A DNA stretch of 64,000 nt, taken from Nitrospirota bacterium (GTDB taxonomy: Bacteria; Nitrospirota; Thermodesulfovibrionia; Thermodesulfovibrionales; JdFR-85). The notes under the pieces were generated by a model that saw only the letters and a list, made by a program, of their open reading frames with translations, had not been told where the DNA came from and did not search any database. The stretch spans positions 65,551 to 129,550 of the forward strand of contig JAYWMQ010000006.1 of the NCBI GenBank assembly GCA_035873375.1, read 5' to 3'. Every line of letters starts with the position of its first letter. Within the stretch, counting starts at the first letter, position 1. This document shows positions 8,790-30,076 of this stretch, piece by piece. A program made the position numbers and the translations under genes.

Positions 8790-8792
8790 GAA

Positions 8793-13745: not shown

Positions 13746-16181
13746 ATGCTGAAAGGAGCGAGGTTCAGGACTTTCATAGGGGTGCTTATTCTTCTTTTTG
13801 CCGGATTGTGGATTACCGGCTGTACTGAAGAGATAGGTTCAATGGGGATGAAGCATAAGTACGATCATGACAGTGCGGATGAGACAAAGGTCATTGCCGT
13901 AGCGGGTGGAAACTTTTACTCCGTTGAGCTTAAATCAGACGGTACGGTCTGGACATGGGGAAGGAACGAATCCGGCCAGCTGGGAGACGGGACAACGATA
14001 GACAGTCCGGCGCCGATACAGATAAGCGGACTCACGGATGTAACCGCCGTTGCAGGCGGGGGTTACCATGCAATGGCGATTAAAGATGACGGCACGGTGT
14101 GGGCATGGGGAAGTAACAATGCAGGTCAGTTGGGCGATGGAACGACGACAGACAGGACTACGCCGGTGCAGGTGATCGGGCTTGCGGACGTGACCGCCGT
14201 TGCTGCCGGATGGAATCATAGCATAGCACTCAAAGCCGATGGCACGGTGTGGGTATGGGGCTGGAATGGAGGAGGCCTGCTGGGAGTGGAAACAACCGAA
14301 AAATGCGAGTTTGGCTCTCCAGCCCTGTCTTGTTCCACCACGCCGGTGCAGGTAAGTGAACTTACGAATATAACCGCTATTGCAGCCGGAAGTTACTATT
14401 CCATAGCACTCGAAGATGACGGTACGGTCTGGACCTGGGGAAATAACTATGCAGGTCAGTTGGGGAGAACAGAAGACGGAAACACACCTACACCAGTGGC
14501 CTCCCTTACGGATATAACCGCTATTGCAGCCGGAGCTTATCATACCGTAGCGCTTAAAGCCGATGGAGCTGTATGGGGATGGGGGAGCAATGAACACGGT
14601 CAGCTGGGAGACGGTACGGCGACATGGAACTCCATCACACCGGTACAAGCAAGCGGACTTACGGATGTAATCGCCATCACCGCCGGAGGCAAAACAAATT
14701 CGGGGCATACCATGGCGCTTAAAGCTGACGGTACCGTATGGGCATGGGGAAGCAATGAACACGGCCAGCTGGGTGTAATAACAACGGAAGTTTGTGAAAT
14801 ATCCCTGACTGCTGGTCGAACCGGGACTACTTATTCTAATCTTTGTTCCACCACGCCGGTGCAGGTAAGCGATTTTCCTGACATAACTGCCATTACAGCT
14901 GGATATTACCATAGTATTGCGGTAAAAGAGGATGGCACAGCATGGGCATGGGGAGATAACAAATACGGCCAGGTGGGGGCGGCAACAACTGAAGTTTGCG
15001 GTTATGGGGATTTTGATTGCAGTCCCACACCCGTACCTGTAAGGAGCAAAGTACCAGGCACATTCAGCATAGGTGGTACGGTAAGCGGTCTTGCTGGAAC
15101 GTTGGTCATTCAAAACAATGGAGGAGATGATCTGGTAATCACGGAGAATGGCTCTTTTACCTTTGCAACAGAACTTGAGGACCTGGATGTTTATGATATA
15201 GGGATTTTAACCCAACCTGATGGTCAGACATGCGAAATCACAAGTGCCAATACTGGAAGGGTCAATGCAACGGACGTAACGGACATAGAGATTGTATGCC
15301 CCTATCCCTTTACGGAAGTCGTTGCTATTGCTGCCGGAACTTTTCATTCCATTGCTCTCAGAACCGACGGTACGGTCTGGACGTGGGGACAAAACTTTAA
15401 CGGTCAGTTGGGTGATGGGACAAGAGATAACAGCCCTGTACCTGTACAGGTCGGATTGTCGGATGTTACCGCAATTGCTGCGCGAAATACTGGTAGCATA
15501 GCGCTTAAAAGCGACGGCACAGTATGGACGTGGGCGAGAGATGGTTACTTTATACCCGTACAGTTAAATGGACTTACGGATATAAGCGCCATCGCTGGGG
15601 GAGGCAACCACTCTCTTGCTATCAAAGCCGTTGACACGCTGTGGGCGTGGGGAAAGAATTTCTCTGGCCAGCTGGGAGACGGAACAACGACGGACAGCTA
15701 CACGCCTGTAAAGGTATCCGGTCTTACAGACGTAAACGCCGTTGCCGGGGGACTCTACCATACCGTAGCACTTAAAAGCGACGGTACGGTGTGGACGTGG
15801 GGATGGAACGAATACGGACAGTTGGGAGACGGAACGACGATAGACAGCCATATCCCTATACAGGTGAGCGGCCTTACGGACATTGTCGCAGTAGCGGCCG
15901 GAAGCGGTCACACAGTGGTTCTTAAAAGCGATGGTGCGGTGTGGGCATGGGGTGGAAACTCTGACGGCCAGCTGGGAGATGGAACGACGATAGACAGCCG
16001 TATCCCTATACAGGTGAGCGGCCTTACGGACATTGTCGCAGTAGCGGCCGGAAGTGGTCATACAATGGCTCTTAAAAGCGATGGCACGGTGTGGGCATGG
16101 GGAAGTAACGCCTCCGGGCAGTTGGGAGATGGAACGACAACAAACAGTACCACACCTGTACAGGTAGTACTGAGACCATAA
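13746..16181 (+). CDS. RCC1-repeat lipoprotein: propeller + beta-sandwich module + propeller
   Basis: Signal peptide ending in lipobox ITGC (Cys26). Thirteen RCC1 repeats. One 80-aa module, FSIGGTVSGLAGTLVIQNNGGDDLVITENGSFTFAT...DVTDIEIVC. Confidence 0.9.
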   Translation: MLKGARFRTFIGVLILLFAGLWITGCTEEIGSMGMKHKYDHDSADETKVIAVAGGNFYSVELKSDGTVWTWGRNESGQLGDGTTIDSPAPIQISGLTDVTAVAGGGYHAMAIKDDGTVWAWGSNNAGQLGDGTTTDRTTPVQVIGLADVTAVAAGWNHSIALKADGTVWVWGWNGGGLLGVETTEKCEFGSPALSCSTTPVQVSELTNITAIAAGSYYSIALEDDGTVWTWGNNYAGQLGRTEDGNTPTPVASLTDITAIAAGAYHTVALKADGAVWGWGSNEHGQLGDGTATWNSITPVQASGLTDVIAITAGGKTNSGHTMALKADGTVWAWGSNEHGQLGVITTEVCEISLTAGRTGTTYSNLCSTTPVQVSDFPDITAITAGYYHSIAVKEDGTAWAWGDNKYGQVGAATTEVCGYGDFDCSPTPVPVRSKVPGTFSIGGTVSGLAGTLVIQNNGGDDLVITENGSFTFATELEDLDVYDIGILTQPDGQTCEITSANTGRVNATDVTDIEIVCPYPFTEVVAIAAGTFHSIALRTDGTVWTWGQNFNGQLGDGTRDNSPVPVQVGLSDVTAIAARNTGSIALKSDGTVWTWARDGYFIPVQLNGLTDISAIAGGGNHSLAIKAVDTLWAWGKNFSGQLGDGTTTDSYTPVKVSGLTDVNAVAGGLYHTVALKSDGTVWTWGWNEYGQLGDGTTIDSHIPIQVSGLTDIVAVAAGSGHTVVLKSDGAVWAWGGNSDGQLGDGTTIDSRIPIQVSGLTDIVAVAAGSGHTMALKSDGTVWAWGSNASGQLGDGTTTNSTTPVQVVLRP
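15831..16130 (+). repeat. Near-identical 150-bp tandem duplication (one RCC1 blade)
   Basis: 15831-15980 versus 15981-16130. The first 74 nt differ at 1 position. Encodes DGTTIDS(H/R)IPIQVSGLTDIVAVAAGSGHT... twice. Confidence 0.9.
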
Positions 16182-16494: not shown

Positions 16495-18486
16495 ATGAAC
16501 CTGTCTGTTTATTGCCCACCTTGTGAGGAGGGGAACTTGGAAAGCCAAAATGATAAGTCAAGCAATGTCTCTTGCATAGACGAGAAATGGTTCCACGCTG
16601 TCTGTAAAAGCATCGGGGATGCTGTTATGGCAACCGATAAAGCCGGCATTGTGCAGTATTTGAATCCGGTCTCCGAAAGACTGACCGGTTGGCTGGAAAA
16701 GGATGCTGTGGGAAGACCGCTGGAGAGCGTTTTCCGGATCATAAATGAGGAAACCCGTAAAGAGGTGGAGGACCCGGTCAAGAAGGTCTTGCGCGAAGGC
16801 CGGGCTGTAGGATTGGCAAACCCTACCCTGCTAATTTCAAAAGACGGAACAGAAATCCCCATTGCTGACAGCGGTTCACCCATCAGAGACTGTAAAGATG
16901 AAATCGTCGGTGTGGTACTGGTTTTCAGTGACCAGACCGAGGAACGCAAGGCGCAGTATGCCTTGCAGGAGGCCAAGGAATTTGCTGAAAGCATCGTTGC
17001 CACCATCCGTGAACCACTAATTGTCCTTGATGCACAATTGAAGGTAATTTCCGCCAATCATCGCTTCTGCCAATCATTCCAGGTGGAAGAGAAGGAAACA
17101 GCCGGCAGACACATTTATGATCTGGGTAACCGGCAATGGGATATTCCCGGACTGAGGGAGCTGCTGGAAGATATTTTGCCACAGAACACCAGTTTCAGCG
17201 ATTTTAAGGTGGAACACGAGTTCGAACATATCGGAAAACGCATTATGCTGTTAAACGCCCGGCGTATATACCACGAAGCGAACAAGACCAGGCTGATCCT
17301 GCTCTCTATTGAGGATGTCACAGAACACTTACGACTGGAGGATCAATACCGTCAGGCGCAAAAGCTGGAGGCCATTGGTCTTCTTTCAGGAGGCGTGGCC
17401 CATGACTTCAATAACCTCCTGACGGTGATTCTTGGCTATGGCGAGGTCATTCTACGAAGACTCCACCGGGATGACCCGTTGCGACAGGATATCAATAAGA
17501 TTCTAAATGCATGCCACCAGGGTGCTAGTCTGACGCATCAACTTCTGGCCTTCAGCCGCAGGCAGACTCTTCAACCCGAGGTTATCGAACTTAACAGGCT
17601 TCTTGACGATCAGCAGAAACTGCTCAGGAGACTGATTGGCGAGAACATCGAGTTCATAACAACGTTTGCTGACAACCTTGGCCGTGTAAAGGCAGACCCC
17701 GGCCAGATTGAACAGGTCATTATGAACCTTGCCGTTAATGCCAGGGATGCCATGCCCCGTGGCGGCAAACTGATTATTGAGACCTCTAATGTTGAGCTTG
17801 ACAAGGAGTACAGTAAGGGTCACATAAGTGTTGTGCCGGGAAAGTATGTAATGCTCGCCATTACAGATACGGGGGTCGGCATGGATAAGGAGACCCGGGG
17901 GAAGATATTTGAGCCTTTTTTCACCACCAAGGAACTGGGTAGAGGAACGGGCCTGGGTCTGTCGACTGTCTACGGAATCGTCAAACAGTCCGGCGGCCAC
18001 ATCTGGGTCTACAGCGAACCGGATAAGGGCACGACTTTCAAGATATATCTGCCTTGCACAGAGGATGCTCCTACTGCCAAGGTTGAACATGAGGAGGTGG
18101 AAGTACAGAGTGGCTGCGGGCATATACTCGTTGTGGAAGATGAGTCAGCAATCCGGGAACTTATAGAGATACAGCTTGAAAACCTGGGTTATCAGGTTAC
18201 CCTGGCCGCAAATGGCGGAGAAGCCCTTCTGGCTATCGAAGAAAAGGGGATTAGACCTGATCTGCTCATAACGGACGTAGTCATGCCCGGGATGAGTGGT
18301 GTAGTGTTGCTCAAACGGCTCCGCAAGACCCTTCCGGAGCTCAGGGTGCTCTTCATGTCAGGTTACACCGACAATGTCATCGTCCACCAAGGCATTCTCG
18401 ATCCGGGCATTCCTTTTATTCAGAAACCGTTCTCAATTAAGGGCCTTTCGGCCATTGTGTGTAAGGAATTACAAAGCAGCAAATGA
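16495..18486 (+). CDS. Hybrid sensor histidine kinase (2 PAS + HisKA + HATPase_c + receiver)
   Basis: PAS-like segments. H-box [18 protein letters not shown]-box [11 protein letters not shown]-boxes DTGVGM and GTGLGLS. C-terminal REC ILVVEDE...[14 protein letters not shown]...KPF. Confidence 0.9.
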
Positions 18487-18518
18487 GTGGCTATCCGCCT
18501 CTCTTTTCTTAATTTGAA

Positions 18519-19223
18519 TTACTTAGAAAGTCTGATAATATTCCATTCTTTCAACCTTGCATATGTCATTAATCTTTTATCTCCAATCACTGCATACGGA
18601 TTCCCTACCGTCTCAAGCATCTTGCTATCTGATATGTGATCAGAATAGGCATAGCTATATGAAAGGTCTATCTTGTTTTTTTTGGAAAATTCTTTCATTG
18701 CCACTGCTTTTCCCATACCTACAACCGGCAGGGAGTTTAGAATCCTGCCAGTATAGCATCCCCCAACAACTTCAACCCGGGTGCCGATTACATGTTTGAT
18801 TGATAACTTTTTTGCATAAGGCAGAATTAACGGCATATGAGAGCCTGACACCAGAACAACAATATGTTCCGATTCTAAATGCTTGTACAGACATTTCATA
18901 ACTCCCTCATTAAAAGATACTCTCTGATCAATGCCTGAAAACCATTTATCAACGAGAAGTTTATATTCTCTTTCATTCACTCCATTGAGCCTGGCATAAT
19001 ATGTTTTGTTTACGCTCATCCTCTCATCTTTCTTCACAGCCTTTGCCATTAACCTTAAGTAATGAAGGTACGCATTAGCAAAAAGGAAGAGCCTCTTAAA
19101 TGGAAACGCACTATTAGTCCTGCAATGCCGGCAATAATACCAATAAAAGGAACTCATTGTATTTAGATTTAACAAGGTCCCGTCTACATCAAAAAAGGCT
19201 GCAATCTTCATCATCGACTCCAA
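18519..19223 (-). CDS. HAD-IB family hydrolase/phosphatase (SerB-like subfamily)
   Basis: AAFFDVDGTLL motif I, VLVSGS motif II, KAVAMKEF...AYSDHISDSKML motifs III/IV, with a cap insertion typical of HAD-IB. Confidence 0.8.
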   Translation of the reverse strand: MESMMKIAAFFDVDGTLLNLNTMSSFYWYYCRHCRTNSAFPFKRLFLFANAYLHYLRLMAKAVKKDERMSVNKTYYARLNGVNEREYKLLVDKWFSGIDQRVSFNEGVMKCLYKHLESEHIVVLVSGSHMPLILPYAKKLSIKHVIGTRVEVVGGCYTGRILNSLPVVGMGKAVAMKEFSKKNKIDLSYSYAYSDHISDSKMLETVGNPYAVIGDKRLMTYARLKEWNIIRLSK

Positions 19224-19256
19224 AATAAATGGATTTTAAGTATCATCAGTAATTCT

Positions 19257-20003
19257 CTAAAATTCAAATATCTCTCCGAATTGAGGGATAAGTACTTTTT
19301 TCTCCAAATCATATAATCTTATTAATCTGCAAAACTCTTTGAGCGGCCAGGAATGTTTTTCAAGAATGGTTCTGAATGTTCCATAATGTACAGGGACCAT
19401 GAGTCCTGCTTTCAAATCCACAAAAACCTTTACCGAATCTGCGGGACTGAGGTGCTCCTTACCAAACAAAAAAGAAGGAGTAGCAAGTCCGATAGGAAGA
19501 AACGCCACATCAATGGAATATTTCCGGCCTATATTTTTGAAAACCTGTGAGTAGCCGCTGTCACCCACAAAGAAAATTGTTTTGCCGTTTATTCTGATTA
19601 TATAACTGTTTGTCTGAGTCTTTCTTCCCCACATGTAACGAGCGGATGCATGCACTGCCGGCAAAGCTGTAATCCTGGCAGCAGCTATATTTCTTGACTC
19701 TCCATGATTCAATTCGAACACCTTGTCTTCGTGAATATCCTTAAAATATCTGCCCGTCTTTTTCGGGCACAATATAGCTTGAACGTCTTTTATTTGACGA
19801 ATCGACGACAAGGACAGATGGTCAATATGTGAATGTGTAATGACTATTATGGTCTTGTTCGGCAATCCATCAATATTTAGCGCTGGCTTTACCATCCGGC
19901 GCATAATGAACCCCATGGAGCTATCAAAATTTGGGTCTGTAAGGATATGAAATGATCCTGCATCAAACAGAACAGTCGAGTGTCCAACAAGTATTGCATT
20001 CAT
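19257..20003 (-). CDS. MBL-fold metallo-hydrolase (UlaG/NAPE-PLD-like subgroup)
   Basis: ITHSHIDH metal motif, FFVGDSGY, VPVHYGTF. Overlaps the upstream SDR gene by 4 nt. Confidence 0.8.
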   Translation of the reverse strand: MNAILVGHSTVLFDAGSFHILTDPNFDSSMGFIMRRMVKPALNIDGLPNKTIIVITHSHIDHLSLSSIRQIKDVQAILCPKKTGRYFKDIHEDKVFELNHGESRNIAAARITALPAVHASARYMWGRKTQTNSYIIRINGKTIFFVGDSGYSQVFKNIGRKYSIDVAFLPIGLATPSFLFGKEHLSPADSVKVFVDLKAGLMVPVHYGTFRTILEKHSWPLKEFCRLIRLYDLEKKVLIPQFGEIFEF

Positions 20004-20968
20004 TTTATTCTCATATATTCCTGCACTGCAGAAGTTACCCCTTCCTGAAAATTCACTGCTGAAACAAACCCTAACTCGTGCTTGGCTAAATCGACGCTGC
20101 AGGCATGATTGAGAGACATGTAGTCAACCACGTATCTCGTCAACTTTGGAGTTGTCTTTTTATATCGTGATACGTGCTCCATTAATAGGGCTAACCCCCT
20201 GGCCGTAACCCTGGGGACTTTCGGGGGGATTCCAACTGACAACTCCTCGGATATAGTCTTTACAATTTCCATCATTGTTGGAATATAAGATGCACCAATA
20301 TTGTAAGTTTCTCCATTTTTTCCTTTTTCAGCACACATTATCAGCCCGTTTACACAATCCGAGACATGAGTTATATGCTTTTTATTTTTACCACTTCCTA
20401 TGATCCTGAAACTTTTGTTCAATATCCCCTCAACCAGAGCCGGAATCAATCGACCGGTCGCTCCATATAAAGATGTGGGACGTGCTATTTTTAAGGGAAG
20501 GCCATTCCGCGCAAACTCGATGGCAATTTCTTCGGACTGAATCTTGGAACGTTCATAATCAAATATATCCTCAGGCAATTGGGACTGTTCATCTTTCAGT
20601 ACAGCTTTTTTCGAAGGCCCATAGAGTAGTGTTGTACTCACATGAACAATATTGGGACATTCCCAGCGCTCACATTGTTCCAGCAGTTTTGTTGTTCCAA
20701 GAACATTTGCATTATAGTAATCATTCCATTTCAGGCCCCAAAAGCCCGTAAGCGCAGCACAATGGTATATGACATCAGCATTCTGAACGGTTCCGGTGTA
20801 AGAGGAGTTGTTCATCAGGTCACCATGCACTACTTCCACGCCGGATAGGAATTCCGGTACTTTCTGCGGATTCCTCACTAATATAGATACATGGCATCCG
20901 TCTTCAAGCAGCCTTTTTGCAAGATGTCTTCCAAGGAACCCTGTTCCTCCGGTTATAAATACTTTCAT
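20000..20968 (-). CDS. NAD(P)-dependent epimerase/dehydratase-family reductase (extended SDR)
   Basis: MKVFITGGTGFLGRHL Rossmann motif. Catalytic YERSK (YxxxK). 322 aa. Confidence 0.85.
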   Translation of the reverse strand: MKVFITGGTGFLGRHLAKRLLEDGCHVSILVRNPQKVPEFLSGVEVVHGDLMNNSSYTGTVQNADVIYHCAALTGFWGLKWNDYYNANVLGTTKLLEQCERWECPNIVHVSTTLLYGPSKKAVLKDEQSQLPEDIFDYERSKIQSEEIAIEFARNGLPLKIARPTSLYGATGRLIPALVEGILNKSFRIIGSGKNKKHITHVSDCVNGLIMCAEKGKNGETYNIGASYIPTMMEIVKTISEELSVGIPPKVPRVTARGLALLMEHVSRYKKTTPKLTRYVVDYMSLNHACSVDLAKHELGFVSAVNFQEGVTSAVQEYMRIK

Positions 20969-20969
20969 G

Positions 20970-22820
20970 CTATTTACCCTCCTTCTTATACCTGATCTTT
21001 CGATGCATCCGTTTTTCCAGGGGACTTTTGTATTCTAACACTTCCCAGTTTGTTGCTTCCCTGAAACTGGGGGTGCCATCCGGATTATTTCCATCAAATA
21101 TCCTGAACCTGTTTCTACTGAGGACACTCCCTGATGAATGGCAATCACTGCAACGAAGTGCTTCTTTTGCATTCCTGACTCCATGAGTAATCGTAAGATA
21201 TGCACCTGCAGGATAATTCGGGCCGTGTGCATCCTGCATGTATTCACCTGTTGGCATCAATGACATGGAATAGTAATCACCAGGATACAGCCCGTTAAAT
21301 ATTCCTACGAGAGGACTATCTGAATCAGCTCCTAAAAACCTTCCAATGGCATTCAAGTTAAAAAATGTCTTTGTCATTGCGCTGTTAACGGCATCACCTA
21401 AGTTAGAGGTTAGAGCAAGAACCTCCCTGTCAAGATTGAAAATGAGCGGCATTGAAGCCATCTTTTCCTGCATTTTTGTAGAGAGGCTGGAATCCAGTGT
21501 TCTGTTTCCCAGAGTTCCAGTTCCATCAGACGCTGTTGCATAAGGATGATCCCCGGGACGCATCATGCCGAGTCCGACTAAAGCCCTCTGAATGGTCGAG
21601 TCATCCAGAACATCTGCCATTACAAGACCTGATGCATCTACAGGCAGGCCTGAAGTAAGAGGCTTGAAAGGCCATATTTTGCTTCCGGAATCATATCTGC
21701 TGCCAATAGGTTGAGCCAGAAAACTTGCGGTTCCGTTGAACCAAAGGTACTTTGGTCTCAGCTTATATTCTTCATATATATCGTACTCATTTTTTCCCTC
21801 TGTAATATAGTCACGGGTATCATATGCACTATACGCGTTCTCTCGTGCATACCTGATGCTTATTCCATCAGAAGTCCACGAGTAAAATGTCGCCCCTGAC
21901 GTCCAGGGAATATGACAGGTCTGGCAAGCAATAAAGGTTAAGTGTCTATTGAGTATTTTACGATTTTTTTTGAGGTGAGGTGTCTCGGAATGGCATTTTT
22001 CGCATTTCATGGCATTTTCCGACGAACCGACACGGTAATCAGAAGCAAATAGTTCAGAAACAAAATTCCCTCTCGGAATTTTATGCTGTTTCACCTCATG
22101 GCAACGAGTGCATGCATTGCCATTGAACGCAGGAGAAGCAATATGGACATCATTCCAGGCTTCGAATGGTGTACCCCGTTCATCCGAAGATGCTGCCTCA
22201 TAATGACATCTGAGACAAAGTTCCGTTTTTGTTTTGCCGATGCTCTTGACAGCATCCCATGTCCTGTCCTGGTACCAGGTTTTTATAACCCATCCATTAT
22301 CTAACGTTTCATCTACCAATCGGTCCCGGCCGTTGTATTGTGACGCATGACAAATGAGACAATCAACTCCGTCTCGTGACTTTTCAATATTTTCTATCGG
22401 CATACCTGTTGATTGGTCAATATCATTCATTGTTCCAGGCAGATATCTCCCCACATGACATTTTCCACATCCCCTGCTGTCATTGAAACTATAGTTAACA
22501 AGGGTATTTCCTCCCGTCATACCACTGCTCCGGTCATAGTGACCATGCATGCCTCCACCGGGATAATCGATATACTGATTTTCGGACCTGAAGGTATAAT
22601 GAACCGTATTCATTACTTCAGTGATCTTTTCCTCATGACAACGTGCGCATAGCTGAGATGTAAGAAGTTCAGCATATCCGTCCGACTCACCGTCCATTGA
22701 ATCAACAGACAGAAACATATTGTAGAGATTTGAATGGCTCCAATCTTCTGCCCATCCAACAGATGCACTCATGAAAAAAAAGAGCAGTGTTAGTATCTTA
22801 AGTAAACTTCTTATTTCCAT
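20970..22820 (-). CDS. Secreted octaheme c-type cytochrome
   Basis: Signal peptide. Eight CxxCH motifs: CARCH, CGKCH, CLICH, CLRCH, CTRCH, CEKCH and CQTCH within aa 58-303, and CSDCH near aa 565. Confidence 0.9.
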   Translation of the reverse strand: MEIRSLLKILTLLFFFMSASVGWAEDWSHSNLYNMFLSVDSMDGESDGYAELLTSQLCARCHEEKITEVMNTVHYTFRSENQYIDYPGGGMHGHYDRSSGMTGGNTLVNYSFNDSRGCGKCHVGRYLPGTMNDIDQSTGMPIENIEKSRDGVDCLICHASQYNGRDRLVDETLDNGWVIKTWYQDRTWDAVKSIGKTKTELCLRCHYEAASSDERGTPFEAWNDVHIASPAFNGNACTRCHEVKQHKIPRGNFVSELFASDYRVGSSENAMKCEKCHSETPHLKKNRKILNRHLTFIACQTCHIPWTSGATFYSWTSDGISIRYARENAYSAYDTRDYITEGKNEYDIYEEYKLRPKYLWFNGTASFLAQPIGSRYDSGSKIWPFKPLTSGLPVDASGLVMADVLDDSTIQRALVGLGMMRPGDHPYATASDGTGTLGNRTLDSSLSTKMQEKMASMPLIFNLDREVLALTSNLGDAVNSAMTKTFFNLNAIGRFLGADSDSPLVGIFNGLYPGDYYSMSLMPTGEYMQDAHGPNYPAGAYLTITHGVRNAKEALRCSDCHSSGSVLSRNRFRIFDGNNPDGTPSFREATNWEVLEYKSPLEKRMHRKIRYKKEGK

Positions 22821-22833
22821 AAATTCCCCCTGT

Positions 22834-23355
22834 TCATATTGTTGAAACCTGCAAAAGATTCCTTTTACGAAATCGATTTACAATTTTTTTACTTATACAG
22901 TTTCCTATTATTTCAAACTCTGCAAGTATCTTGTTGTTCTGGATAACACAAATTACTCCTGTAAATTCCCCATTTCCTTTTCTGCTCTTCTCTTTAAATT
23001 CATTTACAGTAATGCGCAAAATTGTTTCCAACTCGAACTCTACAAAGTTGTAGAACCTTGAAAAAAATCTGTCAAGGATGAAGTAAGTGTCCTGCCCAAT
23101 ACCATAGAACTGATGGACAACCGCAATTCCCATCTGCCGTGCTGCTTCAATAAGAAGCAGTCCAGGTAAATGGTCGACAGGGTGCTCAAAAAAGAAAGGC
23201 AGATTTTCATCGAATGCAATGAAACATTCATAGATATTGCTTCCAAGATCATTTCTGTGAATGATATCGCTTATTAATACATTTGATTCCTCATGTTTGT
23301 GGACATATTTTTTCCCGATTTTTTTTGATTTTGCTGATGCATACCTATCCTTCAT
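22834..23355 (-). CDS. AfsA/ScbA-type hotdog-domain protein (single domain, 173 aa)
   Basis: YVHKHEESNVLISD followed by FFFEHPVDHLPGLLLIEAARQMG. This matches my memory of the A-factor biosynthesis hotdog domain signature (VHK..enVl...; F.DHp.DHvPGm.l.EaaRQ). Strong RBS AAGGAGGGGGG. Confidence 0.6.
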   Translation of the reverse strand: MKDRYASAKSKKIGKKYVHKHEESNVLISDIIHRNDLGSNIYECFIAFDENLPFFFEHPVDHLPGLLLIEAARQMGIAVVHQFYGIGQDTYFILDRFFSRFYNFVEFELETILRITVNEFKEKSRKGNGEFTGVICVIQNNKILAEFEIIGNCISKKIVNRFRKRNLLQVSTI

Positions 23356-23620
23356 TCTCCCCCCCTCCTTATTTTAATAATCATACCGTACCGTTATACT
23401 TTATTCTTAGATTCAGGTTGCTGAAGTATTGTGACAAGCGCATGTCAAATCTTCTGTAATGGTAATATTGTACTTAAGGCTGAACAAAAAAATATGGTAA
23501 ATATACCTTTACAATTACAGATTTATCTTAAAGAATGGAGGGAGAGAGAGAAGAAGGCCATATCTCAGCGGGCTGTTGGCAAAAAGAAATACAGTCAATA
23601 CTCTATCATTCCTCTTGTTT

Positions 23621-23660
23621 ACGCCCGGTATGGACATGATCTAATGAAGTGACCTGTCTG
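23621..23660. repeat. 40-nt direct repeat, left copy (partner at 27980-28019)
   Basis: ACGCCCGGTATGGACATGATCTAATGAAGTGACCTGTCTG versus ACGCCCGGCACGGACATGAGCTAATGGGGTGACCTGTATG, 34/40 identical by hand alignment. A further shared CCGTTA(A/G)AGC lies downstream. Confidence 0.75.
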
Positions 23661-23820
23661 TCAGAAGGTCCGTTAAAGCTGGTTTGTCCTCGCGAGTCAA
23701 GGCTGTCAAGGATATCAAATCAAGCAGATTTTACAGAATCTCAACAAAGCAGATATTTCTATCGTCAAGAGAAAGAGTTGTGGACTAAAAAGAAAATATA
23801 AATTGGCACAAACGGTTTTT

Positions 23821-25284
23821 TTACCCTAAAATCCCGGCTTTGCGGGCAACGGACAGCAGCGCAGGGCAGGGCTCGATACCAAGCTCCCGTTTCAGGGTCT
23901 CTTTTGCCCCGTTGAATATCTGAACGGCCTTTGAAGGGTATGTCTCCATATAGGAGCGCATGAGGTAAACATACACCTCTTCATATAGTGGGTCCTTATC
24001 AGCCGCCCTGTGGAGTTGAGGGATTTTCTCACCTTCAGGCATGAGGGATGATGCCATGTCTGAATACTGTCTTGCCTGATCAGGCATAGCCGTCTTTCAT
24101 ACAGATTTGCAACCTCGAGCGTACCTGCCGATGCAAGGAGCAGAAAACCTGCCTCTTTCCATCTCTGTATCCACACAAGAAAGTGTTTTAGGGCCTCACT
24201 ATCCCTGCCGAGGTCGGAAAGCGCCTGGCCGTGAAGGAGGGAGGGCATCTGTACTGCAATGGGACTTTCACTCGATCTTCCCCTGTCAATTGCCTCATTG
24301 CTGTGAAGGAGAGCCCTGTGAGGCAGGTTTATCCCGAGTGTATGCTATGCCAAGATTAAAGTGCAGATAGGAGTAATGAAAGTAGTTCTGCTCAGGTATG
24401 GCACGGGCGCGCACCTTTTCGGCAATCCGTTCCACTGCCTCTGAATTTCCACTGTGCGAAAGGACATGCAGTAGATGTCCATAAGCAAGAAAATATACAG
24501 GGGGCGGGAGCGTTTCAAAGAATGGCAGGTTTATGATCTCCATCAGCACCCGTCCCCCGGCGTCAGGGTTTCCACTGACTGTATGGAATAATCCCAGGGT
24601 GGTTTGAAAATATATCCTGCAGACCATGGATGTATCAGGTTGTTCACACAGTATTCCGGCATCTGAAAGGAGCATATCCGCCTCTGAAAGTCTGCCCATC
24701 CAGAGGAGGCTGTAACTGGCTGCTGCAGAGTAAAAGAGCCTGAGAGATATGGAGCCAGCCTTTTCCGCCCATAAACGCAGTAACCTGTAACTATCCAGGG
24801 CCTGTTGCACCTTTCCGTAACCTGTAAGTTCTGCCATGGCCCTGAATCCGTAAAGTGATGCCATTGCAAGGGGTGGGATATGTTCCTTTATATCAAGAAG
24901 TTCTTCAATCCTGCCGTACCATGAGTCATAACGGTGGTAGTTATGTCCACTGTCCCAGATGGAGGCGACCCTGGCACCAAGGCTGGCACATGCTGCCTCA
25001 TAATCACCGGCACTCATGAATAACCGGTAGAACTTATCCATTGAATCCAGAGGGATTGACTGTTTTACCGCCTCTGAAAGAAAGAGGATTCTGGGCGGAA
25101 ATTGCTGTATATCAGTGGTAAATTTCTGAAGGGGCATGAGATGGGAGATGATGGCAGGGGTGTCCATGTTAAACCACCAGGTAAGCCCGTCGTCACACAG
25201 GGCGTAAATATATTCGTCCCATTTTCCCTCCTCCACATGTGAATTGTAAGGGCTTTTTAGTTGAATAAAGGATGACTCTTCCAT
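23821..25284 (-). pseudogene. TPR-superhelix + C-terminal BTAD regulator, disrupted by two frameshifts
   Basis: Three consecutive ORF pieces (25284-24295, about 24340-24090 in another frame, 24087-23821). Together they read through a TPR-like region into a BTAD-like tail, DPLYEEVYVYLMRSYMETYPSKAVQIFNGAKETLKRELGIEPCPAL. The first and last pieces share a frame. Confidence 0.7.
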
Positions 25285-25315
25285 AAATATAGTGATGTTG
25301 CGTTGTTATACGGGG

Positions 25316-25447
25316 TTACATCAATTCTTTAAGTTTTTCAATTGTAATATCTGCATCTTGCAAGATACTTTTAAAGGTTTTGGGATGAATGATTTTACCT
25401 GAATGATAATGATAAGGAACAGTTACTCTTGGCAACTTCTCTGTCAT
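25316..25447 (-). CDS. HicA-like toxin remnant (43 aa, C-terminal half only)
   Basis: Not in the ORF track because it is under 60 aa. Translation is MTEKLPRVTVPYHYHSGKIIHPKTFKSILQDADITIEKLKELM, resembling the ..VTVP.H.g.dl..gTl.sILkqAgi.. C-terminal half of HicA. ATGA overlap with the hicB stop. The N-terminal half with the GSH motif is absent. Confidence 0.5.
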   Translation of the reverse strand: MTEKLPRVTVPYHYHSGKIIHPKTFKSILQDADITIEKLKELM

Positions 25448-25668
25448 ACTGCTACTTCCCTCAGGGTTAGACTCACAGATTCAGATTGTGGTATATCTTC
25501 ATTGTTCTCAATTCTGTCTTCCACGTGGAGCCGAATAGCGTCTTTGATGTTTTCCAGAACTTCTTCATAAGAATTACCCTGTGTGTAGCAACCCTGAAGT
25601 TCAGGACAAAATGCAAAATAGCCATCACTATCTCGTTCAACTATAACGGAAAACCTGCATGTATGCAT
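25444..25668 (-). CDS. hicB: HicB-family antitoxin (UPF0150 fold, no DNA-binding extension)
   Basis: FSVIVERDSDGYFAFCPELQGCYTQGNSYEEVLENIKDAIRLHVE, a typical short HicB. RBS AGGAGGAGG. Confidence 0.8.
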   Translation of the reverse strand: MHTCRFSVIVERDSDGYFAFCPELQGCYTQGNSYEEVLENIKDAIRLHVEDRIENNEDIPQSESVSLTLREVAV

Positions 25669-25704
25669 TTCTGACCTCCTCCTGATGGGGTTAACCTTCG
25701 ATAA

Positions 25705-25713
25705 ATTATAACA
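25705..25713 (-). promoter_or_regulatory. Candidate extended -10 promoter for hicB
   Basis: The minus strand reads TGTTATAAT (TGnTATAAT) about 37 nt upstream of the hicB ATG. No convincing -35 element. Confidence 0.4.
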
Positions 25714-25771
25714 TAAACTTGACTGACGGGTGTCCGGGAAGATACGGAATTGTTAAGGCATGGAGTAAGGA

Positions 25772-25793
25772 TTGTGAAGATATTTCTTCACAA
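25772..25793 (-). promoter_or_regulatory. Perfect 9-bp inverted repeat (hairpin or operator)
   Basis: TTGTGAAGA-TATT-TCTTCACAA, immediately after the stop of the small ORF and about 60 nt upstream of the hicB -10. No U tract. Confidence 0.35.
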
Positions 25794-25970
25794 TTAAAGG
25801 GCAGCCCATCTTAATTGTTTGGTAATAAATACTGTTTTTTTATTGTACTTGACCAGTATCCCGACTACCTCACCACGACCAGGAGGATGAAAGTATACTT
25901 TTTCTCCAACACTGAACTCGAGCATTTCAGAGTGGACCCGCATTGACTCTATAAACTTTAACCTTTCCAC
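25794..25970 (-). CDS. Small hypothetical ORF (58 aa) immediately downstream of the sulfatase gene
   Basis: GTG start. Translation is (M)ERLKFIESMRVHSEMLEFSVGEKVYFHPPGRGEVVGILVKYNKKTVFITKQLRWAAL. A degenerate, frame-broken paralog lies at about 28080-28215. No family recognised. Confidence 0.3.
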   Translation of the reverse strand: MERLKFIESMRVHSEMLEFSVGEKVYFHPPGRGEVVGILVKYNKKTVFITKQLRWAAL

Positions 25971-25999
25971 CTCGATAATCTCGATTTGCTATACTATTT

Positions 26000-27907
26000 T
26001 CACTGTTTCCATCGATTAAGATGATGTTTATATAAATAACTTGCACTTTGATAATATGTTATTGCATCTGATGCATCCTTGTCTAAAGGAGCAATTTCTT
26101 TATATTTGATGCCGCGAAGACTCTGATTAACTATACTATACTCGTGAACACTCCTGTCTGGTTCCAATACAAGAAGCCTCCTGTTTCTTAAAAACCCCAA
26201 TTTCTGGTAAGTTCCAATAAATGCTCTTTCATAAAACTTTTCATTAAGTATATTCTTGCCATAAAATTTACTTTCATAACTCCAGTTCATAATTGAAAAA
26301 AGAGTAGGCATAAGATCAATTTGGGAAGATAGTTTACTTATAGTATTTGGTTCTATAATATCTGGTGCATAAATTAAAAAAGGAATCTTATATCGCCAGG
26401 CAGGTAATGATGTTTTCCCGGCACTTCCTCCGTTATGGTCAGCTACAATAACAAAAATAGTATTTTTAAACCAAGGCCTGGATGCTGCATTTTTTAAGAA
26501 TTTATCAATAGCATAATCTGTATATTTTACTCCTCCCGCTCTTCCCGTGTGTGAGGGTATATCTATTTTTCCATCAGGGTAGGTATATGGTCTATGATTG
26601 GAGGTTGTCATTATGTAGTTAAAGAATGGCTTCCCTTTTTTATATGATTTATCTGATTCTTTTAGTGCCTTGTTAAACAAATCTTCATCACATACTCCCC
26701 AAGCATTAGAAAATGTTATTTCATCTTTGGTCATATTCGTTCTATCAACAATATAAAAGCCGTTATGTGAAAAAAAATCATTCATATTATCAAAATAACC
26801 ATATCCTGCATAAATAAATTTATTTTCATATCCTTTTTCTTTAAATACAAACCCCGAAGAAAACATATTATAGTTATCCGGTCTTTTAACAATACTTCTT
26901 CCAGGTGTTGGAGGAACAGATAAAGTAACAGCTTCCATCCCTCTAACCGTTCTTGTTCCTGTTGCATAAAAATTATCGAAAAATAGAGATTTCTTAGCCA
27001 GTTTATCTAAATACGGGGTTAAGTCCCTATTGTCGCCAAAAATCCCCATATATTCTGCACTAAGACTCTCAACCATAATCAACATAATATTATATTTTAA
27101 TTCTTTGCCATCTTTATTTATAAACTGCGAGGAGTTATCATCGAATCCAGACAAGATCTTTAAATTAGACATTACAGTTTTTATATTCTCAGTCTTATAG
27201 AACTCATCATAGTCTAATGTATTATTTCTAAAGGCAGAGAATAGAGAATAAAGTCCATTTTTGGATAATTCATTGTCATATTGATTATTAGAGATATTTG
27301 CTAAAGATTGCTTATCAAGTATATTAAAAAACAAGACAGGTAAAACAATCAAAACTGCTACAACTTTCAATCGTTGCAGATAACCTTGAGTAGAATCAAA
27401 TGCAAAATCAAGAATAGATGTTTTTTTATAAATAAAATAAAAAGTAATAGAACTAATTATAAAAACGATGGTAAGAAGCAATGGGATTGGATATGATTCA
27501 AGGATATTATTTATGACCTCATGCGTATATACAAGATAATCAACAGCAATAAAATTAAACCTTTTTCCAAACTCATCCCAAAAGAACCATTCTGAAAAAC
27601 CATTAAAAACGAGTAGATTAATCTGAATAAACAAAAACAGCCAGATTATGTATTTATGAAATTTGTTGTTAAATAACTTATTGGGCATCAAAGCAATATA
27701 TAGCGCAAAAGGTGCTACAAAATACATAGCCGCAACAAAATCATAAATTAATCCCACTAAAAACAGTTTTATTAGTACAAATATTCCAAAATCAACCTGA
27801 TCAAAATCGGCAAACAGTAATATTATTCTTGAGGTAAAGCTAATAGCGATAAATATCACTATTAGCAAAGTTACTAAAGCAAAGCGATTTTTTATATATT
27901 TTGACAT
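26000..27907 (-). CDS. LTA-synthase/phosphoglycerol-transferase family sulfatase-fold membrane protein
   Basis: Five N-terminal TM helices followed by an alkaline-phosphatase-superfamily domain (MVESLSAEYMG...TGTRTVRGMEA...VADHNGG). Very AT-rich. Confidence 0.85.
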   Translation of the reverse strand: MSKYIKNRFALVTLLIVIFIAISFTSRIILLFADFDQVDFGIFVLIKLFLVGLIYDFVAAMYFVAPFALYIALMPNKLFNNKFHKYIIWLFLFIQINLLVFNGFSEWFFWDEFGKRFNFIAVDYLVYTHEVINNILESYPIPLLLTIVFIISSITFYFIYKKTSILDFAFDSTQGYLQRLKVVAVLIVLPVLFFNILDKQSLANISNNQYDNELSKNGLYSLFSAFRNNTLDYDEFYKTENIKTVMSNLKILSGFDDNSSQFINKDGKELKYNIMLIMVESLSAEYMGIFGDNRDLTPYLDKLAKKSLFFDNFYATGTRTVRGMEAVTLSVPPTPGRSIVKRPDNYNMFSSGFVFKEKGYENKFIYAGYGYFDNMNDFFSHNGFYIVDRTNMTKDEITFSNAWGVCDEDLFNKALKESDKSYKKGKPFFNYIMTTSNHRPYTYPDGKIDIPSHTGRAGGVKYTDYAIDKFLKNAASRPWFKNTIFVIVADHNGGSAGKTSLPAWRYKIPFLIYAPDIIEPNTISKLSSQIDLMPTLFSIMNWSYESKFYGKNILNEKFYERAFIGTYQKLGFLRNRRLLVLEPDRSVHEYSIVNQSLRGIKYKEIAPLDKDASDAITYYQSASYLYKHHLNRWKQ

Positions 27908-28019: not shown

Positions 28020-28430
28020 CGTGCAACGCACAGGCAGGAAGTCTCCTGCCGTTAGAGCAGACGTTATAATTTTAAATATAATTATTTGGTAACAACTTAC
28101 TTCTTTGGGTGGATTTCAATTACGTTGCCTGAATTCCTGTTTTTTTGCATTGATTCTTTTGTCTTTTCAAGCAAAAGAGGAGACACATTCCATCTCGATA
28201 ACCTCGATTTTCTGATGATTGTTACATATAACCGATACCGGTAATTGTACAGTTTTTGTATGTTTTCAAAGTATACACCATTAAAATCTTAATTGACAAC
28301 ACGGATATCATGATATTTGTAATGATTTCCGGCAGTTGAAATGTATTTTGGTCATATGTTAGTATTCGGTTATGGAGGCAATTGCCGAAAAGACTGTAGA
28401 GACTCTCTATGATTTGTGCAACATCATTTG

Positions 28431-30014: not shown

Positions 30015-30076
30015 CACAAATGGGCACGAATTAAAGGATTAGGATTCATGGGAAAGACAAGACAGAAGACTTTTGG

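What the first reader, a model, noticed from the sequence alone, without database searches (positions are those of the whole stretch)
18519..23355. Five-gene operon: AfsA-type hotdog protein, octaheme cytochrome c, extended SDR, MBL hydrolase and HAD-IB phosphatase (candidate butenolide/gamma-butyrolactone-like pathway)
Seen in the sequence:
- Five minus-strand genes are packed with gaps of 13, 1, -4 and 33 nt, so they are almost certainly one transcript behind a strong RBS.
- Spot counts of single 60-nt lines gave about 28% and 45% G+C, against about 58% in one flanking-gene line. The block is AT-shifted.
- The first gene product carries YVHKHEESNVLISD...FFFEHPVDHLPGLLLIEAARQ, which I recognise as the AfsA/ScbA/MmfL hotdog signature.

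Established knowledge: AfsA-family enzymes condense dihydroxyacetone phosphate with a beta-ketoacyl thioester. The phosphorylated butenolide is then reduced (BprA-type NAD(P)H reductase) and dephosphorylated (for example the HAD phosphatase MmfP) to give gamma-butyrolactone or furan signals.

Inference: this operon supplies a reductase (SDR), a HAD phosphatase and an extra phosphodiesterase-like MBL enzyme. That fits a signal or lipid-like small-molecule pathway. The genomic context is clearly not actinomycete (tamB-bamA, multiheme cytochrome). No TetR-type receptor is present. Instead the neighbours are a PAS hybrid kinase (convergent) and a BTAD-domain regulator remnant (upstream). Embedding a periplasmic octaheme cytochrome in such an operon is not something I know from described AfsA clusters.
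Basis: partly seen in the sequence, partly recalled or inferred. Interest (0 to 1): 0.8.

Follow-up and report, generated by a model that had tools for sequence, protein, structure and literature searches.

The report
AfsA synthase operon with octaheme cytochrome
A real five-gene operon pairs an enzyme of the kind that makes Streptomyces "hormone" lactones with an exported eight-haem cytochrome; the same pairing recurs in unrelated anaerobic bacteria, including a cultured Geobacter relative, so it is probably an undescribed small-molecule system that can now be tested at the bench.

Summary
Five minus-strand genes (18519-23355) encode a single-repeat AfsA hotdog protein, an octahaem c-type cytochrome, an extended SDR, an MBL hydrolase and a HAD-IB phosphatase. 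They are tightly packed behind an AGGAGG ribosome-binding site.

The AfsA call is solid: Pfam PF03756 at 109.5 bits, no FabZ/MaoC/thioesterase hit, and the ExxR catalytic motif present. It is not a canonical two-repeat ScbA/BarX enzyme.

The gene set is conserved. The same five genes in the same order occur in two other Nitrospirota-type lineages and in the cultured Geotalea (Geobacter) daltonii FRC-32. A three-gene form (AfsA-cytochrome-HAD) occurs in an Ectothiorhodospiraceae MAG. In a further gene cluster the cytochrome and HAD sit beside a polyketide synthase with fused AfsA repeats.

All eight lineages of this cytochrome clade have an adjacent AfsA domain. None of 77 more distant OTR-like loci does. 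The core is therefore AfsA + cytochrome + HAD, and the SDR and MBL are accessory.

Best reading: a cytoplasmic route from a phosphorylated acyl-DHAP or butenolide to a diffusible molecule, which a dedicated periplasmic cytochrome then acts on. The product and the cytochrome's role are inferred, not shown. I found no literature describing the pairing.

The parts
22834..23355 (-). Single-repeat AfsA-family hotdog protein (173 aa), the putative acyl/beta-ketoacyl:DHAP condensing enzyme. No signal peptide.
   Evidence: Pfam PF03756 at 109.5 bits, with no other family hit. It aligns best with the second repeat of a ScbA/BarX protein: PFFFEHPVDHLPGLLLIEAARQ against PIFFDHPVDHVPGMMLLEAARQ. E70 and R73 are invariant in the clade.
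20970..22820 (-). Exported octahaem c-type cytochrome (616 aa) of the OTR fold. It belongs to a distinct clade carrying an invariant GGGxHGHxDR loop.
   Evidence: Eight CXXCH motifs and a hydrophobic N-terminal signal sequence. The only PDB relative is 1sp3 (phmmer E 1.4e-17; Foldseek E 1.6e-15, TMt 0.61). TIGR04315 scores 132 bits against a cutoff of 375. The AF2 model has pLDDT 79.7.
20000..20968 (-). Extended SDR (NAD(P)-dependent epimerase/dehydratase family, 322 aa), the putative reductase of the pathway intermediate.
   Evidence: PF01370 at 142.5 bits. GxxGxxG and Y138xxxK are present. It is in the same Pfam family as the reductase next to ScbA/BarX in L097. It is absent from the three-gene forms.
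19257..20003 (-). MBL-fold metallohydrolase (248 aa). Its closest solved relative is NAPE-PLD. Putative phosphodiesterase or lactonase; accessory.
   Evidence: PF12706 at 102 bits. The HxHxDH motif is present. PDB 4qn9 NAPE-PLD at E 7e-18, plus UPF0173 hydrolases.
18519..19223 (-). HAD-IB family phosphatase (the probable true start is ATG 19214). Putative dephosphorylation step; part of the conserved core.
   Evidence: TIGR01490 at 118.6 bits, above the 98.3 cutoff. DxDxT and SDxxxD motifs are present. Orthologues at 40-53% identity are present in every lineage whose downstream DNA is available, including the PKS cluster. The start was checked.
23364..23369 (-). Ribosome-binding site AGGAGG, 8 nt upstream of the AfsA start codon.
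   Evidence: Read directly from the sequence.
23370..23820 (-). AT-rich (about 37% G+C) upstream intergenic region, presumed to hold the promoter or operator. It contains the palindrome TGACA-N6-TGTCA at 23432-23447.
   Evidence: Sequence and G+C content. There is no Rfam match. The consensus scan gave no strong sigma-70 match on the minus strand. Function is not shown.

Best explanation
This is a conserved, horizontally mobile module. Its core is a single-repeat AfsA enzyme, a HAD-IB phosphatase and a dedicated periplasmic octahaem cytochrome c. Here, and in three other lineages, it is extended by an extended-SDR reductase and an MBL hydrolase.

Proposed mechanism:
1. The AfsA protein, acting as a homodimer of one hotdog repeat, transfers a beta-ketoacyl group from fatty-acid-synthase ACP onto dihydroxyacetone phosphate. 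This gives an acyl-DHAP ester that cyclises to a phosphorylated butenolide. This activity is family knowledge and is inferred here from the conserved motif.
2. The SDR reduces the intermediate, in a BprA- or ketoreductase-like step (inferred).
3. The MBL enzyme opens a lactone or cleaves a phosphoester (inferred; accessory).
4. The HAD-IB enzyme removes the phosphate, giving a neutral molecule that can cross membranes (inferred).
5. In the periplasm the OTR-fold cytochrome oxidises or reduces this molecule. That ties its final form or activity to the respiratory electron pool, as an oxygen-independent stand-in for the P450 or flavoenzyme partners of AfsA in aerobes. This is the weakest step and is inferred only from strict co-inheritance.

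In several lineages a co-transferred AraC-family regulator is the likely sensor.
For: **AfsA identity**
- The Pfam hit is AfsA only.
- The ExxR motif equivalent to ScbA E240/R243 is present. Those residues are reported as essential in PMC13454427.

**Conservation**
- The same five genes in the same order occur in L007/L012 (91% identity), L008, L009/L014 and Geotalea daltonii FRC-32, in different flanks.
- The three-gene form AfsA-cytochrome-HAD occurs in L092 and in an Ectothiorhodospiraceae MAG.
- Cytochrome and HAD orthologues (58% and 45% identity) lie next to a KS-AfsA-AfsA polyketide synthase, with acyl-AMP ligase, ACPs and a PPTase. That is the known beta-ketoacyl plus DHAP chain-release logic (PMC7756379).

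**Specificity**
- All eight cytochrome lineages (no more than 81% identical to each other) have an adjacent AfsA.
- None of 77 distant OTR-like loci (802 kb) has AfsA, the HAD or the MBL.

**Intact catalytic motifs**
- The catalytic motifs are intact in nearly all lineages; only the SDxxxD pattern of the HAD was not matched in the Ectothiorhodospiraceae and L010 copies.

**Parallels with known pathways**
- The canonical route AfsA, then BprA, then a phosphatase is described in PMC11877004.
- An AfsA/epimerase-family reductase pair is seen in L097.
- AfsA + HAD + P450 neighbourhoods are reported in PMC8209734.

**Regulator**
- The AraC regulator is 47% identical over its full length between a Nitrospirae MAG and Geotalea.
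Against: - No member of this single-repeat clade has been characterised. It scores 50.5 bits against a cutoff of 200 on the ScbA/BarX equivalog model.
- The four enzymes are cytoplasmic and the cytochrome is exported. No transporter is conserved.
- No multihaem cytochrome is known to act on a butenolide or lactone; known OTR substrates are inorganic.
- The SDR's best solved relatives are sugar-nucleotide epimerases. Its similarity to the ScbA-linked reductase is confined to the Rossmann part.
- The MBL's best relative is a phospholipase D, and the HAD weakly resembles lipid phosphatases. Both fit a lipid reading equally well.
- The nearest AfsA relatives (44-48% identity) sit in flagellar or chemotaxis clusters without a phosphatase, reductase or cytochrome nearby.
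Confidence: 0.45

Rival explanations
1. The cytochrome is the functional centre. It is a periplasmic OTR-type reductase or oxidase for an inorganic sulphur or nitrogen compound. The cytoplasmic enzymes make a small amphiphilic molecule that serves it, as an electron mediator, cofactor or anchor, or as an autoinducer that controls its expression through the AraC regulator. The molecule is not its substrate.
For: - The cytochrome is the best-conserved gene of the set.
- Its only structural relative is a respiratory enzyme, 1sp3.
- No quinol-dehydrogenase partner is encoded in the operon.
- An AraC regulator is co-inherited.
Against: - The OTR Lys56 position aligns with His, and the neighbouring Cys of broader relatives is lost. 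The active site therefore differs from OTR.
- 77 other OTR-like loci need no such enzymes.
- In L010 the cytochrome sits inside a typical secondary-metabolite cluster.
Confidence: 0.22
2. This is a lipid-remodelling pathway, not a signal pathway. AfsA makes acyl-DHAP. The SDR acts as an acyl-DHAP reductase and gives a lysophosphatidate-like lipid. The NAPE-PLD-like MBL and the PgpC-like HAD trim head groups. The lipid product is needed in the membrane or periplasm where the cytochrome works.
For: - The MBL's best solved relative is NAPE-PLD (E 7e-18).
- The HAD has a weak match to phosphatidylglycerophosphatase C (TIGR01545).
- The SDR's best NCBIfam matches are lipid-linked: HpnA, OleD and sterol demethylase SdmB.
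- A Burkholderia single-repeat AfsA lies beside a fatty-acid desaturase.
Against: - All these matches are far below the family cutoffs.
- The three-gene forms lack the SDR and MBL.
- The PKS-fused form points to beta-ketoacyl chemistry and chain release.
- Acyl-DHAP formation by an AfsA enzyme without cyclisation has not been reported in what I read.
Confidence: 0.15
3. The AfsA-like hotdog protein of this clade is not a biosynthetic enzyme. It is an acyl-ligand-binding or regulatory protein (as its presence in chemotaxis and flagellar operons might suggest), or a factor needed for maturation of the cytochrome.
For: - The flagellar and chemotaxis-locus homologues nest inside the cytochrome-linked clade, and no other biosynthetic genes are nearby.
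- Start and stop codons of AfsA and the cytochrome overlap in G. daltonii.
Against: - The catalytic ExxR and FFFEHxxDHxPG motifs are strictly conserved.
- A HAD phosphatase always accompanies the pair.
- AfsA has no signal peptide, whereas cytochrome c maturation is periplasmic.
Confidence: 0.1
4. The adjacency is a chance or purely local arrangement with no functional link.
For: None beyond the lack of experimental data.
Against: Eight lineages spanning Nitrospirota, a Geobacter relative and a gammaproteobacterial MAG keep AfsA next to this cytochrome clade in different genomic flanks. None of 77 distant relatives does.
Confidence: 0.02

Closest known systems
A-factor / SCB gamma-butyrolactone pathway of Streptomyces (AfsA/ScbA, BprA-type reductase, phosphatase)
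   Same: - AfsA-family domain with the ExxR motif.
- An NAD(P)-dependent epimerase/dehydratase-family reductase follows it in the operon. The same arrangement is seen next to ScbA/BarX in L097.
- A phosphatase step is present.
   Different: - One AfsA repeat (173 aa) instead of two (about 300-340 aa). It fails the ScbA/BarX equivalog model.
- No TetR/ArpA-type receptor; an AraC-type regulator is present in relatives.
- A dedicated HAD-IB phosphatase, an extra MBL hydrolase and an obligatory octahaem cytochrome.
- The hosts include a cultured Geotalea and uncultured bacteria known only from metagenomes, not actinomycetes.
mmfLHP (methylenomycin furans), the SRB/SAB butenolide pathways, and the AfsA + HAD + P450 neighbourhoods noted by Creamer et al.
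   Same: A three-part logic of AfsA enzyme, phosphatase and redox tailoring enzyme. SabA/SabP/SabD are described, and AfsA + HAD + P450. The gene order AfsA, redox enzyme, phosphatase in the three-gene form resembles mmfL-mmfH-mmfP; that order is from my own knowledge and was not checked here.
   Different: The redox partner here is an exported eight-haem c-type cytochrome rather than a cytoplasmic flavoenzyme or P450. I could not retrieve SCP1 to compare MmfP and MmfH directly.
Phosphorylated butenolide synthase (PBS) domains that release polyketide chains (gladiostatin/gladiofungin, Burkholderia gladioli)
   Same: In L010/L011, AfsA repeats are fused to the C-terminus of a ketosynthase protein, with phosphatase genes in the cluster. 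PMC7756379 shows such domains condense 3-ketothioesters with DHAP.
   Different: That architecture is in a relative, not in this window. The window's AfsA is free-standing and would draw on fatty-acid-synthase intermediates. The gladiostatin cluster description I read mentions no cytochrome c.
Octahaem tetrathionate reductase (OTR, Shewanella oneidensis, PDB 1sp3)
   Same: Eight CXXCH motifs. It is the only significant sequence and fold match in the PDB. Periplasmic location.
   Different: - About 180 residues longer.
- TIGR04315 scores 132 bits against a cutoff of 375.
- The position aligned to OTR Lys56 (the unusual haem ligand; my own knowledge of Mowat et al. 2004, cited in PMC8840924) is His, inside an invariant GGGxHGHxDR loop.
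- Always linked to AfsA, unlike 77 other OTR-like loci.

Membership tests
AfsA family (Pfam PF03756; phosphorylated butenolide synthases) | AfsA hotdog domain scoring above the Pfam gathering threshold, and better than other hotdog families | tested here: met
   109.5 bits against a cutoff of 24. No FabZ, MaoC or 4HBT hit at E<=0.01. The best PDB sequence hit is FabZ at only E 0.66.
AfsA family (Pfam PF03756; phosphorylated butenolide synthases) | Conserved active-site Glu/Arg (ExxR on the central helix; ScbA E78/R81 and E240/R243) | tested here: met
   E70 and R73 in IEAARQ align with LEAARQ of the second repeat of a ScbA/BarX protein. They are invariant across the clade. The residue roles are from PMC13454427.
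Canonical AfsA/ScbA/BarX gamma-butyrolactone synthases (NCBIfam NF041195) | Two tandem AfsA repeats in one polypeptide of about 300 aa, and a score above the equivalog cutoff | tested here: not met
   One repeat, 173 aa. NF041195 scores 50.5 bits against a cutoff of 200, matching only profile positions 200-266. The control ScbA/BarX protein has two stretches.
Canonical AfsA/ScbA/BarX gamma-butyrolactone synthases (NCBIfam NF041195) | Adjacent TetR-family (ArpA/ScbR) receptor gene | tested here: not met
   No TetR-family gene was seen among the neighbouring genes I scanned or in related loci. An AraC-family gene is present in L008, L009 and G. daltonii. The control locus L097 has ScbR.
AfsA family (Pfam PF03756; phosphorylated butenolide synthases) | Catalyses condensation of a beta-ketoacyl thioester with DHAP | not testable with these tools
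   Needs an enzyme assay. There is only indirect support, from the PKS-fused relative in L010 and published PBS activity.
AfsA family (Pfam PF03756; phosphorylated butenolide synthases) | Hotdog fold | tested here: inconclusive
   The AF2 model built from five sequences has pLDDT 51.7. Foldseek finds no hit at E<=0.001; the weak top hits are mostly thioesterase, FabZ and FabA hotdogs.
Octahaem tetrathionate reductase family (TIGR04315) | Eight CXXCH haem-binding motifs and the OTR fold | tested here: met
   Eight motifs at residues 58, 118, 154, 202, 237, 273, 299 and 557. Foldseek against 1sp3 gives E 1.6e-15 and TMt 0.61.
Octahaem tetrathionate reductase family (TIGR04315) | Score above the curated family cutoff | tested here: not met
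   132.3 bits against a cutoff of 375.
Octahaem tetrathionate reductase family (TIGR04315) | Lysine ligand to the catalytic haem (Lys56 of OTR) | tested here: inconclusive
   The HMMER alignment puts OTR ...RGK(56)... opposite the invariant ...HGH(94).... This loop has pLDDT below 50 in the model, so the equivalence is uncertain.
HAD-IB hydrolases (TIGR01490) | Score above the cutoff, and the DxDxT and (S/G)DxxxD motifs | tested here: met
   118.6 bits against 98.3. DVDGT at residue 12 and SDHISD at residue 194.
BprA-type butenolide phosphate reductase | Specific homology to a reductase encoded next to AfsA/ScbA genes | tested here: inconclusive
   Same Pfam family, PF01370. Pairwise similarity to the L097 reductase is 30% over 118 N-terminal residues only (E 3e-11).
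NAPE-PLD-like MBL phosphodiesterases | MBL fold with the HxHxDH metal site and similarity to NAPE-PLD | tested here: met
   HSHIDH at residue 57. 4qn9 at E 7e-18 over residues 5-233. Substrate not testable.

The most novel reading that the evidence does not exclude
Some anaerobic lineages (seen here in a Nitrospirota MAG, a Geobacter relative and a gammaproteobacterial MAG) run a butenolide- or furan-type hormone system. In it, an oxygen-independent octahaem cytochrome c, wired to the respiratory chain, performs the tailoring or activating redox step that P450s and flavoenzymes perform in aerobic actinomycetes. An AraC-type regulator, not a TetR-type one, reads the signal. Signal activity would then be gated by the cell's extracytoplasmic redox state. 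The chemotaxis and flagellar-locus paralogues would hint at a link to motility.
Probability: 0.2. Interest if true: 0.85.

Novelty: new variant of a known kind. Interest (0 to 1): 0.68.

Why it matters
AfsA-type signals are textbook regulators of antibiotic production in actinomycetes. Outside that phylum, AfsA homologues have been counted (12 phyla, PMC8209734) but almost never explained.

This work defines a distinct clade of single-repeat AfsA enzymes. It is inherited together with one specific clade of periplasmic eight-haem cytochromes across phyla. If the link is biochemical, there are two possibilities:
- It is the first case of a multihaem cytochrome c working on, or with, a butenolide-type metabolite.
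- It is a new way of coupling a diffusible signal to respiration in metal- and sulphur-cycling anaerobes.

The complete operon is present in the cultured Geotalea daltonii FRC-32, so the question can go straight to genetics, metabolomics and enzymology.

Tried and rejected
- **AfsA structure.** Only five sequences were allowed into the alignment, so the model was poor (pLDDT 51.7). Its fold search gave nothing significant and I do not use it.
- **Genome-collection scan with AfsA peptide patterns.** It returned only two loci, both flagellar-type. The conserved operons were found through the cytochrome instead.
- **SCP1 retrieval.** I tried to fetch SCP1 to compare MmfL, MmfH and MmfP. Neither NC_003903 nor AL589148 is in the plasmid collection.
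- **Literature search for BprA.** It was swamped by an unrelated acronym. Searches pairing AfsA with multihaem, octahaem, daltonii or Geobacter found nothing relevant.
- **RNA and repeats upstream.** No Rfam family matches 18000-26000. The repeat finder reports no inverted repeat of 10 nt or more upstream.
- **Plasmid-borne single-repeat AfsA genes.** The contexts in Burkholderia and Mycetohabitans were uninformative.
- **Rejected: the block is a recent foreign island defined by its AT shift.** The shift is modest here. In L008, L009 and G. daltonii the operon is slightly more GC-rich than its flanks.
- **Rejected: the PAS hybrid kinase or the BTAD fragment is the cognate regulator.** Neither recurs in the other lineages.

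Full report
**What is in the window**

Five ORFs lie head to tail on the minus strand.

| Coordinates | Length | Product |
|---|---|---|
| 23355-22834 | 173 aa | AfsA hotdog protein |
| 22820-20970 | 616 aa | octahaem cytochrome c |
| 20968-20000 | 322 aa | extended SDR |
| 20003-19257 | 248 aa | MBL hydrolase |
| 19223-18519 | 234 aa | HAD-IB phosphatase |

- The last gap is 33 nt only with the TTG start. GGAG-N4-ATG at 19214 is the more plausible start, giving 42 nt.
- AGGAGG sits 8 nt upstream of the first ATG.
- The block is AT-shifted, but modestly. It is 41.2% G+C against 46.2% for the window and 50-52% for the flanking kinase and RCC1-repeat genes. GC3 is about 40% against 48-56%.
- The wider window is ordinary chromosome of a diderm: TamB, Omp85/BamA, LeuA, aconitase-family and HslU-like genes.
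- An identical AfsA protein is on record from a Nitrospirota MAG.

**What the five proteins are**

*AfsA*
- In Pfam the 173-aa protein matches AfsA only (PF03756, 109.5 bits, cutoff 24). No other hotdog family appears at E<=0.01. The nearest solved sequence is a FabZ at E 0.66.
- It has one AfsA repeat. Against the curated ScbA/BarX equivalog it scores 50.5 bits (cutoff 200) and covers only the second-repeat region.
- Aligned to a bona fide ScbA/BarX protein from a Streptomyces plasmid, it matches the second repeat best: PFFFEHPVDHLPGLLLIEAARQ against PIFFDHPVDHVPGMMLLEAARQ.
- The Glu and Arg of EAAR correspond to ScbA E240 and R243, reported as essential (PMC13454427). They are invariant in the clade.

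*Cytochrome*
- It has eight CXXCH motifs and an N-terminal hydrophobic signal sequence.
- Its only PDB relative by sequence (E 1.4e-17) and by fold is Shewanella OTR, 1sp3 (Foldseek E 1.6e-15, TMt 0.61). The fold comparison used a model with pLDDT 79.7.
- It falls far below the OTR family cutoff (132 against 375 bits).
- An invariant GGGxHGHxDR loop lies where OTR has the Lys56 haem ligand. The Lys56 role is from my own knowledge of Mowat et al. 2004, which is cited in PMC8840924.

*Other three enzymes*
- The SDR is an epimerase/dehydratase-family enzyme with GxxGxxG and YxxxK.
- The MBL has HxHxDH. Its closest solved relatives are NAPE-PLD (E 7e-18) and the UPF0173 hydrolases.
- The HAD passes the HAD-IB TIGR01490 cutoff and has DxDxT.

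**Conservation: the decisive evidence**

Searching with AfsA alone first suggested no conservation. Its nearest word-index hits (44-48% identity) lie in Thermodesulfovibrio and other Nitrospirae-type flagellar or chemotaxis clusters. Searching with the cytochrome changed the picture.

| Lineage | Loci | Gene arrangement |
|---|---|---|
| 91% relatives | L007, L012 | same five genes (L012 ends within the SDR gene) |
| Nitrospirae MAG | L008 | same five genes, same order, different flanks |
| Hydrothermal-vent contig | L009/L014 | same five genes, same order, different flanks |
| Geotalea daltonii FRC-32 (cultured) | L099; same lineage in L013, L093, L094, L100, L101 | all five genes with 4-nt overlaps |
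| Three-gene form | L092; Ectothiorhodospiraceae MAG (L102/L103) | AfsA-cytochrome-HAD |
| Short contig | L095 | AfsA-cytochrome, then the contig ends |
| PKS cluster | L010/L011 | HAD and cytochrome orthologues (45% and 58% identity) follow a 1266-aa KS protein ending in two AfsA repeats |

- The L010/L011 cluster also contains an acyl-AMP ligase, two ACPs, a PPTase, a radical-SAM enzyme and others.
- In all, eight cytochrome lineages (no more than 81% identical to each other) each have an AfsA domain next to the cytochrome.
- The 77 more distant OTR-like loci recovered in the same scan (802 kb) contain no AfsA, no orthologous HAD and no orthologous MBL.
- The cytochrome is the best-conserved gene (51-59% identity to the window's copy). 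AfsA is the least conserved (37-42%).
- An AraC-family regulator lies beside the five-gene form in L008, L009/L014 and G. daltonii. It is 47% identical over its whole length, including the non-DNA-binding part. It is not in this 64-kb window.

**How it most likely works**

*Shown*
- The family identities and intact catalytic motifs.
- The strict co-inheritance of AfsA, cytochrome and HAD.
- The accessory status of the SDR and MBL.
- The cellular sidedness: four proteins lack signal peptides and one is an exported haem protein.

*Established knowledge*
- AfsA enzymes condense beta-ketoacyl thioesters with DHAP. The ester cyclises to a butenolide phosphate, which BprA reduces and a phosphatase dephosphorylates (PMC11877004).
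- AfsA-like domains fused to PKSs release chains in the same way. SAB butenolides need a phosphatase and a ketoreductase (PMC7756379).
- AfsA + HAD + P450 neighbourhoods exist in other phyla (PMC8209734).

*Inference*
- This operon makes a phosphorylated acyl-DHAP or butenolide from a fatty-acid-synthase intermediate. It reduces it (SDR), possibly opens or trims it (MBL), and dephosphorylates it (HAD) to a membrane-permeant molecule.
- The periplasmic cytochrome then oxidises or reduces that molecule. In these hosts, which include a cultured anaerobe, this would stand in for oxygen-dependent tailoring enzymes.
- The PKS-fused variant supports the beta-ketoacyl logic.
- Nothing here shows what the cytochrome does. 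The compartment mismatch, the lack of a transporter and the lack of precedent are real weaknesses.
- I put 0.45 on this overall scheme, and much less on the specific role of the cytochrome.

**Rivals**
- The cytochrome is a respiratory or detoxifying enzyme for an inorganic substrate, and the small molecule serves or regulates it (0.22).
- The enzymes remodel a glycerolipid. This would fit the NAPE-PLD-like MBL, the weak PgpC-like signal in the HAD and the lipid-type SDR matches, but all are far below cutoffs, and the SDR and MBL are dispensable (0.15).
- The AfsA-like protein is a ligand-binding or maturation factor. The flagellar and chemotaxis paralogues nest within the clade, but the catalytic motifs are conserved (0.10).
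- Chance adjacency is effectively excluded.

**Comparison with what is known, and novelty**

The system works like an AfsA-type butenolide or lactone pathway. By domain and motif it belongs to the AfsA Pfam family. It is not a member of the canonical two-repeat ScbA/BarX group, and it lacks the TetR receptor. The cytochrome has the OTR fold but fails the OTR family model.

Full-text searches pairing AfsA with multihaem, octahaem, daltonii or Geobacter found no description of this pairing. That is absence from the searchable library, not proof of absence.

I classify it as a new variant of a known kind. The variant is a single-repeat AfsA module obligatorily coupled to a periplasmic octahaem cytochrome, spread across phyla, and present in a cultured organism where it can be tested.

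**Limits**
- The AfsA structure model was too poor to use.
- Two fold libraries were unavailable.
- True BprA, MmfH and MmfP sequences could not be fetched.

Noticed in passing
Loci L001-L006 (for example L003:1620-2147, L001:3560-4087, L006:1767-2294): The closest free-standing homologues of the window's AfsA (44-48% identity, 175 aa) lie inside flagellar or chemotaxis clusters of Thermodesulfovibrio and other Nitrospirae-type MAGs and metagenome contigs. One arrangement is FliS-(FliT)-AfsA-response regulator-PilZ-MotA-MotB-PAS kinase. Another is MCP-CheW-AfsA-small ORF-MCP-CheR-CheD-CheB. In a neighbour-joining tree they nest within the cytochrome-linked clade. No cytochrome, HAD or SDR is in the available flanks.
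   Followed up: partly
L008:12671-13675, L009:12564-13565, L099:14919-15893 (minus strand): An AraC-family regulator lies beside the five-gene operon in three lineages. It is 47% identical over its full length between a Nitrospirae MAG and Geotalea daltonii, including the roughly 230-residue N-terminal part. It is a candidate receptor for the product. It is not found anywhere in the 64-kb window.
   Followed up: partly
L010:1-13252 (and L011): A separate biosynthetic gene cluster contains cytochrome and HAD orthologues. Its other genes are an acyl-AMP ligase, two small ACPs, a TrpD-like phosphoribosyltransferase, an IGPS-like enzyme, an MBL, a KS protein ending in two AfsA repeats, an isochorismatase, a PPTase and a B12-binding radical-SAM enzyme. 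The product is unknown.
   Followed up: partly
window 23821-25284 (minus strand): An 88-aa ORF matches only the C-terminal half of the BTAD domain (profile positions 77-143 of 146). The overlapping 118-aa ORF and the upstream 329-aa ORF have no Pfam match. This looks like a decayed or frameshifted regulator gene. It is not conserved next to the operon in other lineages.
   Followed up: partly
window 23432-23447: The perfect palindrome TGACA-TGCGCT-TGTCA lies about 80 nt upstream of the AfsA start codon. It is also present in the 91%-identical contig L007. It may be an operator, but it is too short to be significant on its own.
   Followed up: no
window 26000-27907 (minus strand); 25444-25668 (minus strand): A 635-aa membrane protein with a sulfatase/LtaS-type domain has the lowest G+C in the window (30.5%, GC3 24%). 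A HicB-like antitoxin gene lies next to it. Together with the operon this makes a low-GC stretch of about 10 kb.
   Followed up: no
window 10533-13427 and 13746-16181 (plus strand): Two very large tandem RCC1-repeat (beta-propeller) proteins of 964 and 811 aa, each with 10-13 repeats, lie just upstream of the PAS hybrid kinase.
   Followed up: no
L007:~640-680 against window 23310-23330: The 91%-identical metagenome contig has seven A's where the window has eight, in the homopolymer near the 5' end of the AfsA gene. As a result the gene was called as a 99-aa fragment there. This is either an assembly error or a natural frameshift.
   Followed up: partly
window 28416-31929 and 7815-9632; L010:13310-14959: Peptide/nickel-type ABC transporter genes (SBP_bac_5 plus permeases) flank the region on both sides. 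An SBP_bac_5 gene also follows the L010 cluster. This is probably coincidence.
   Followed up: no
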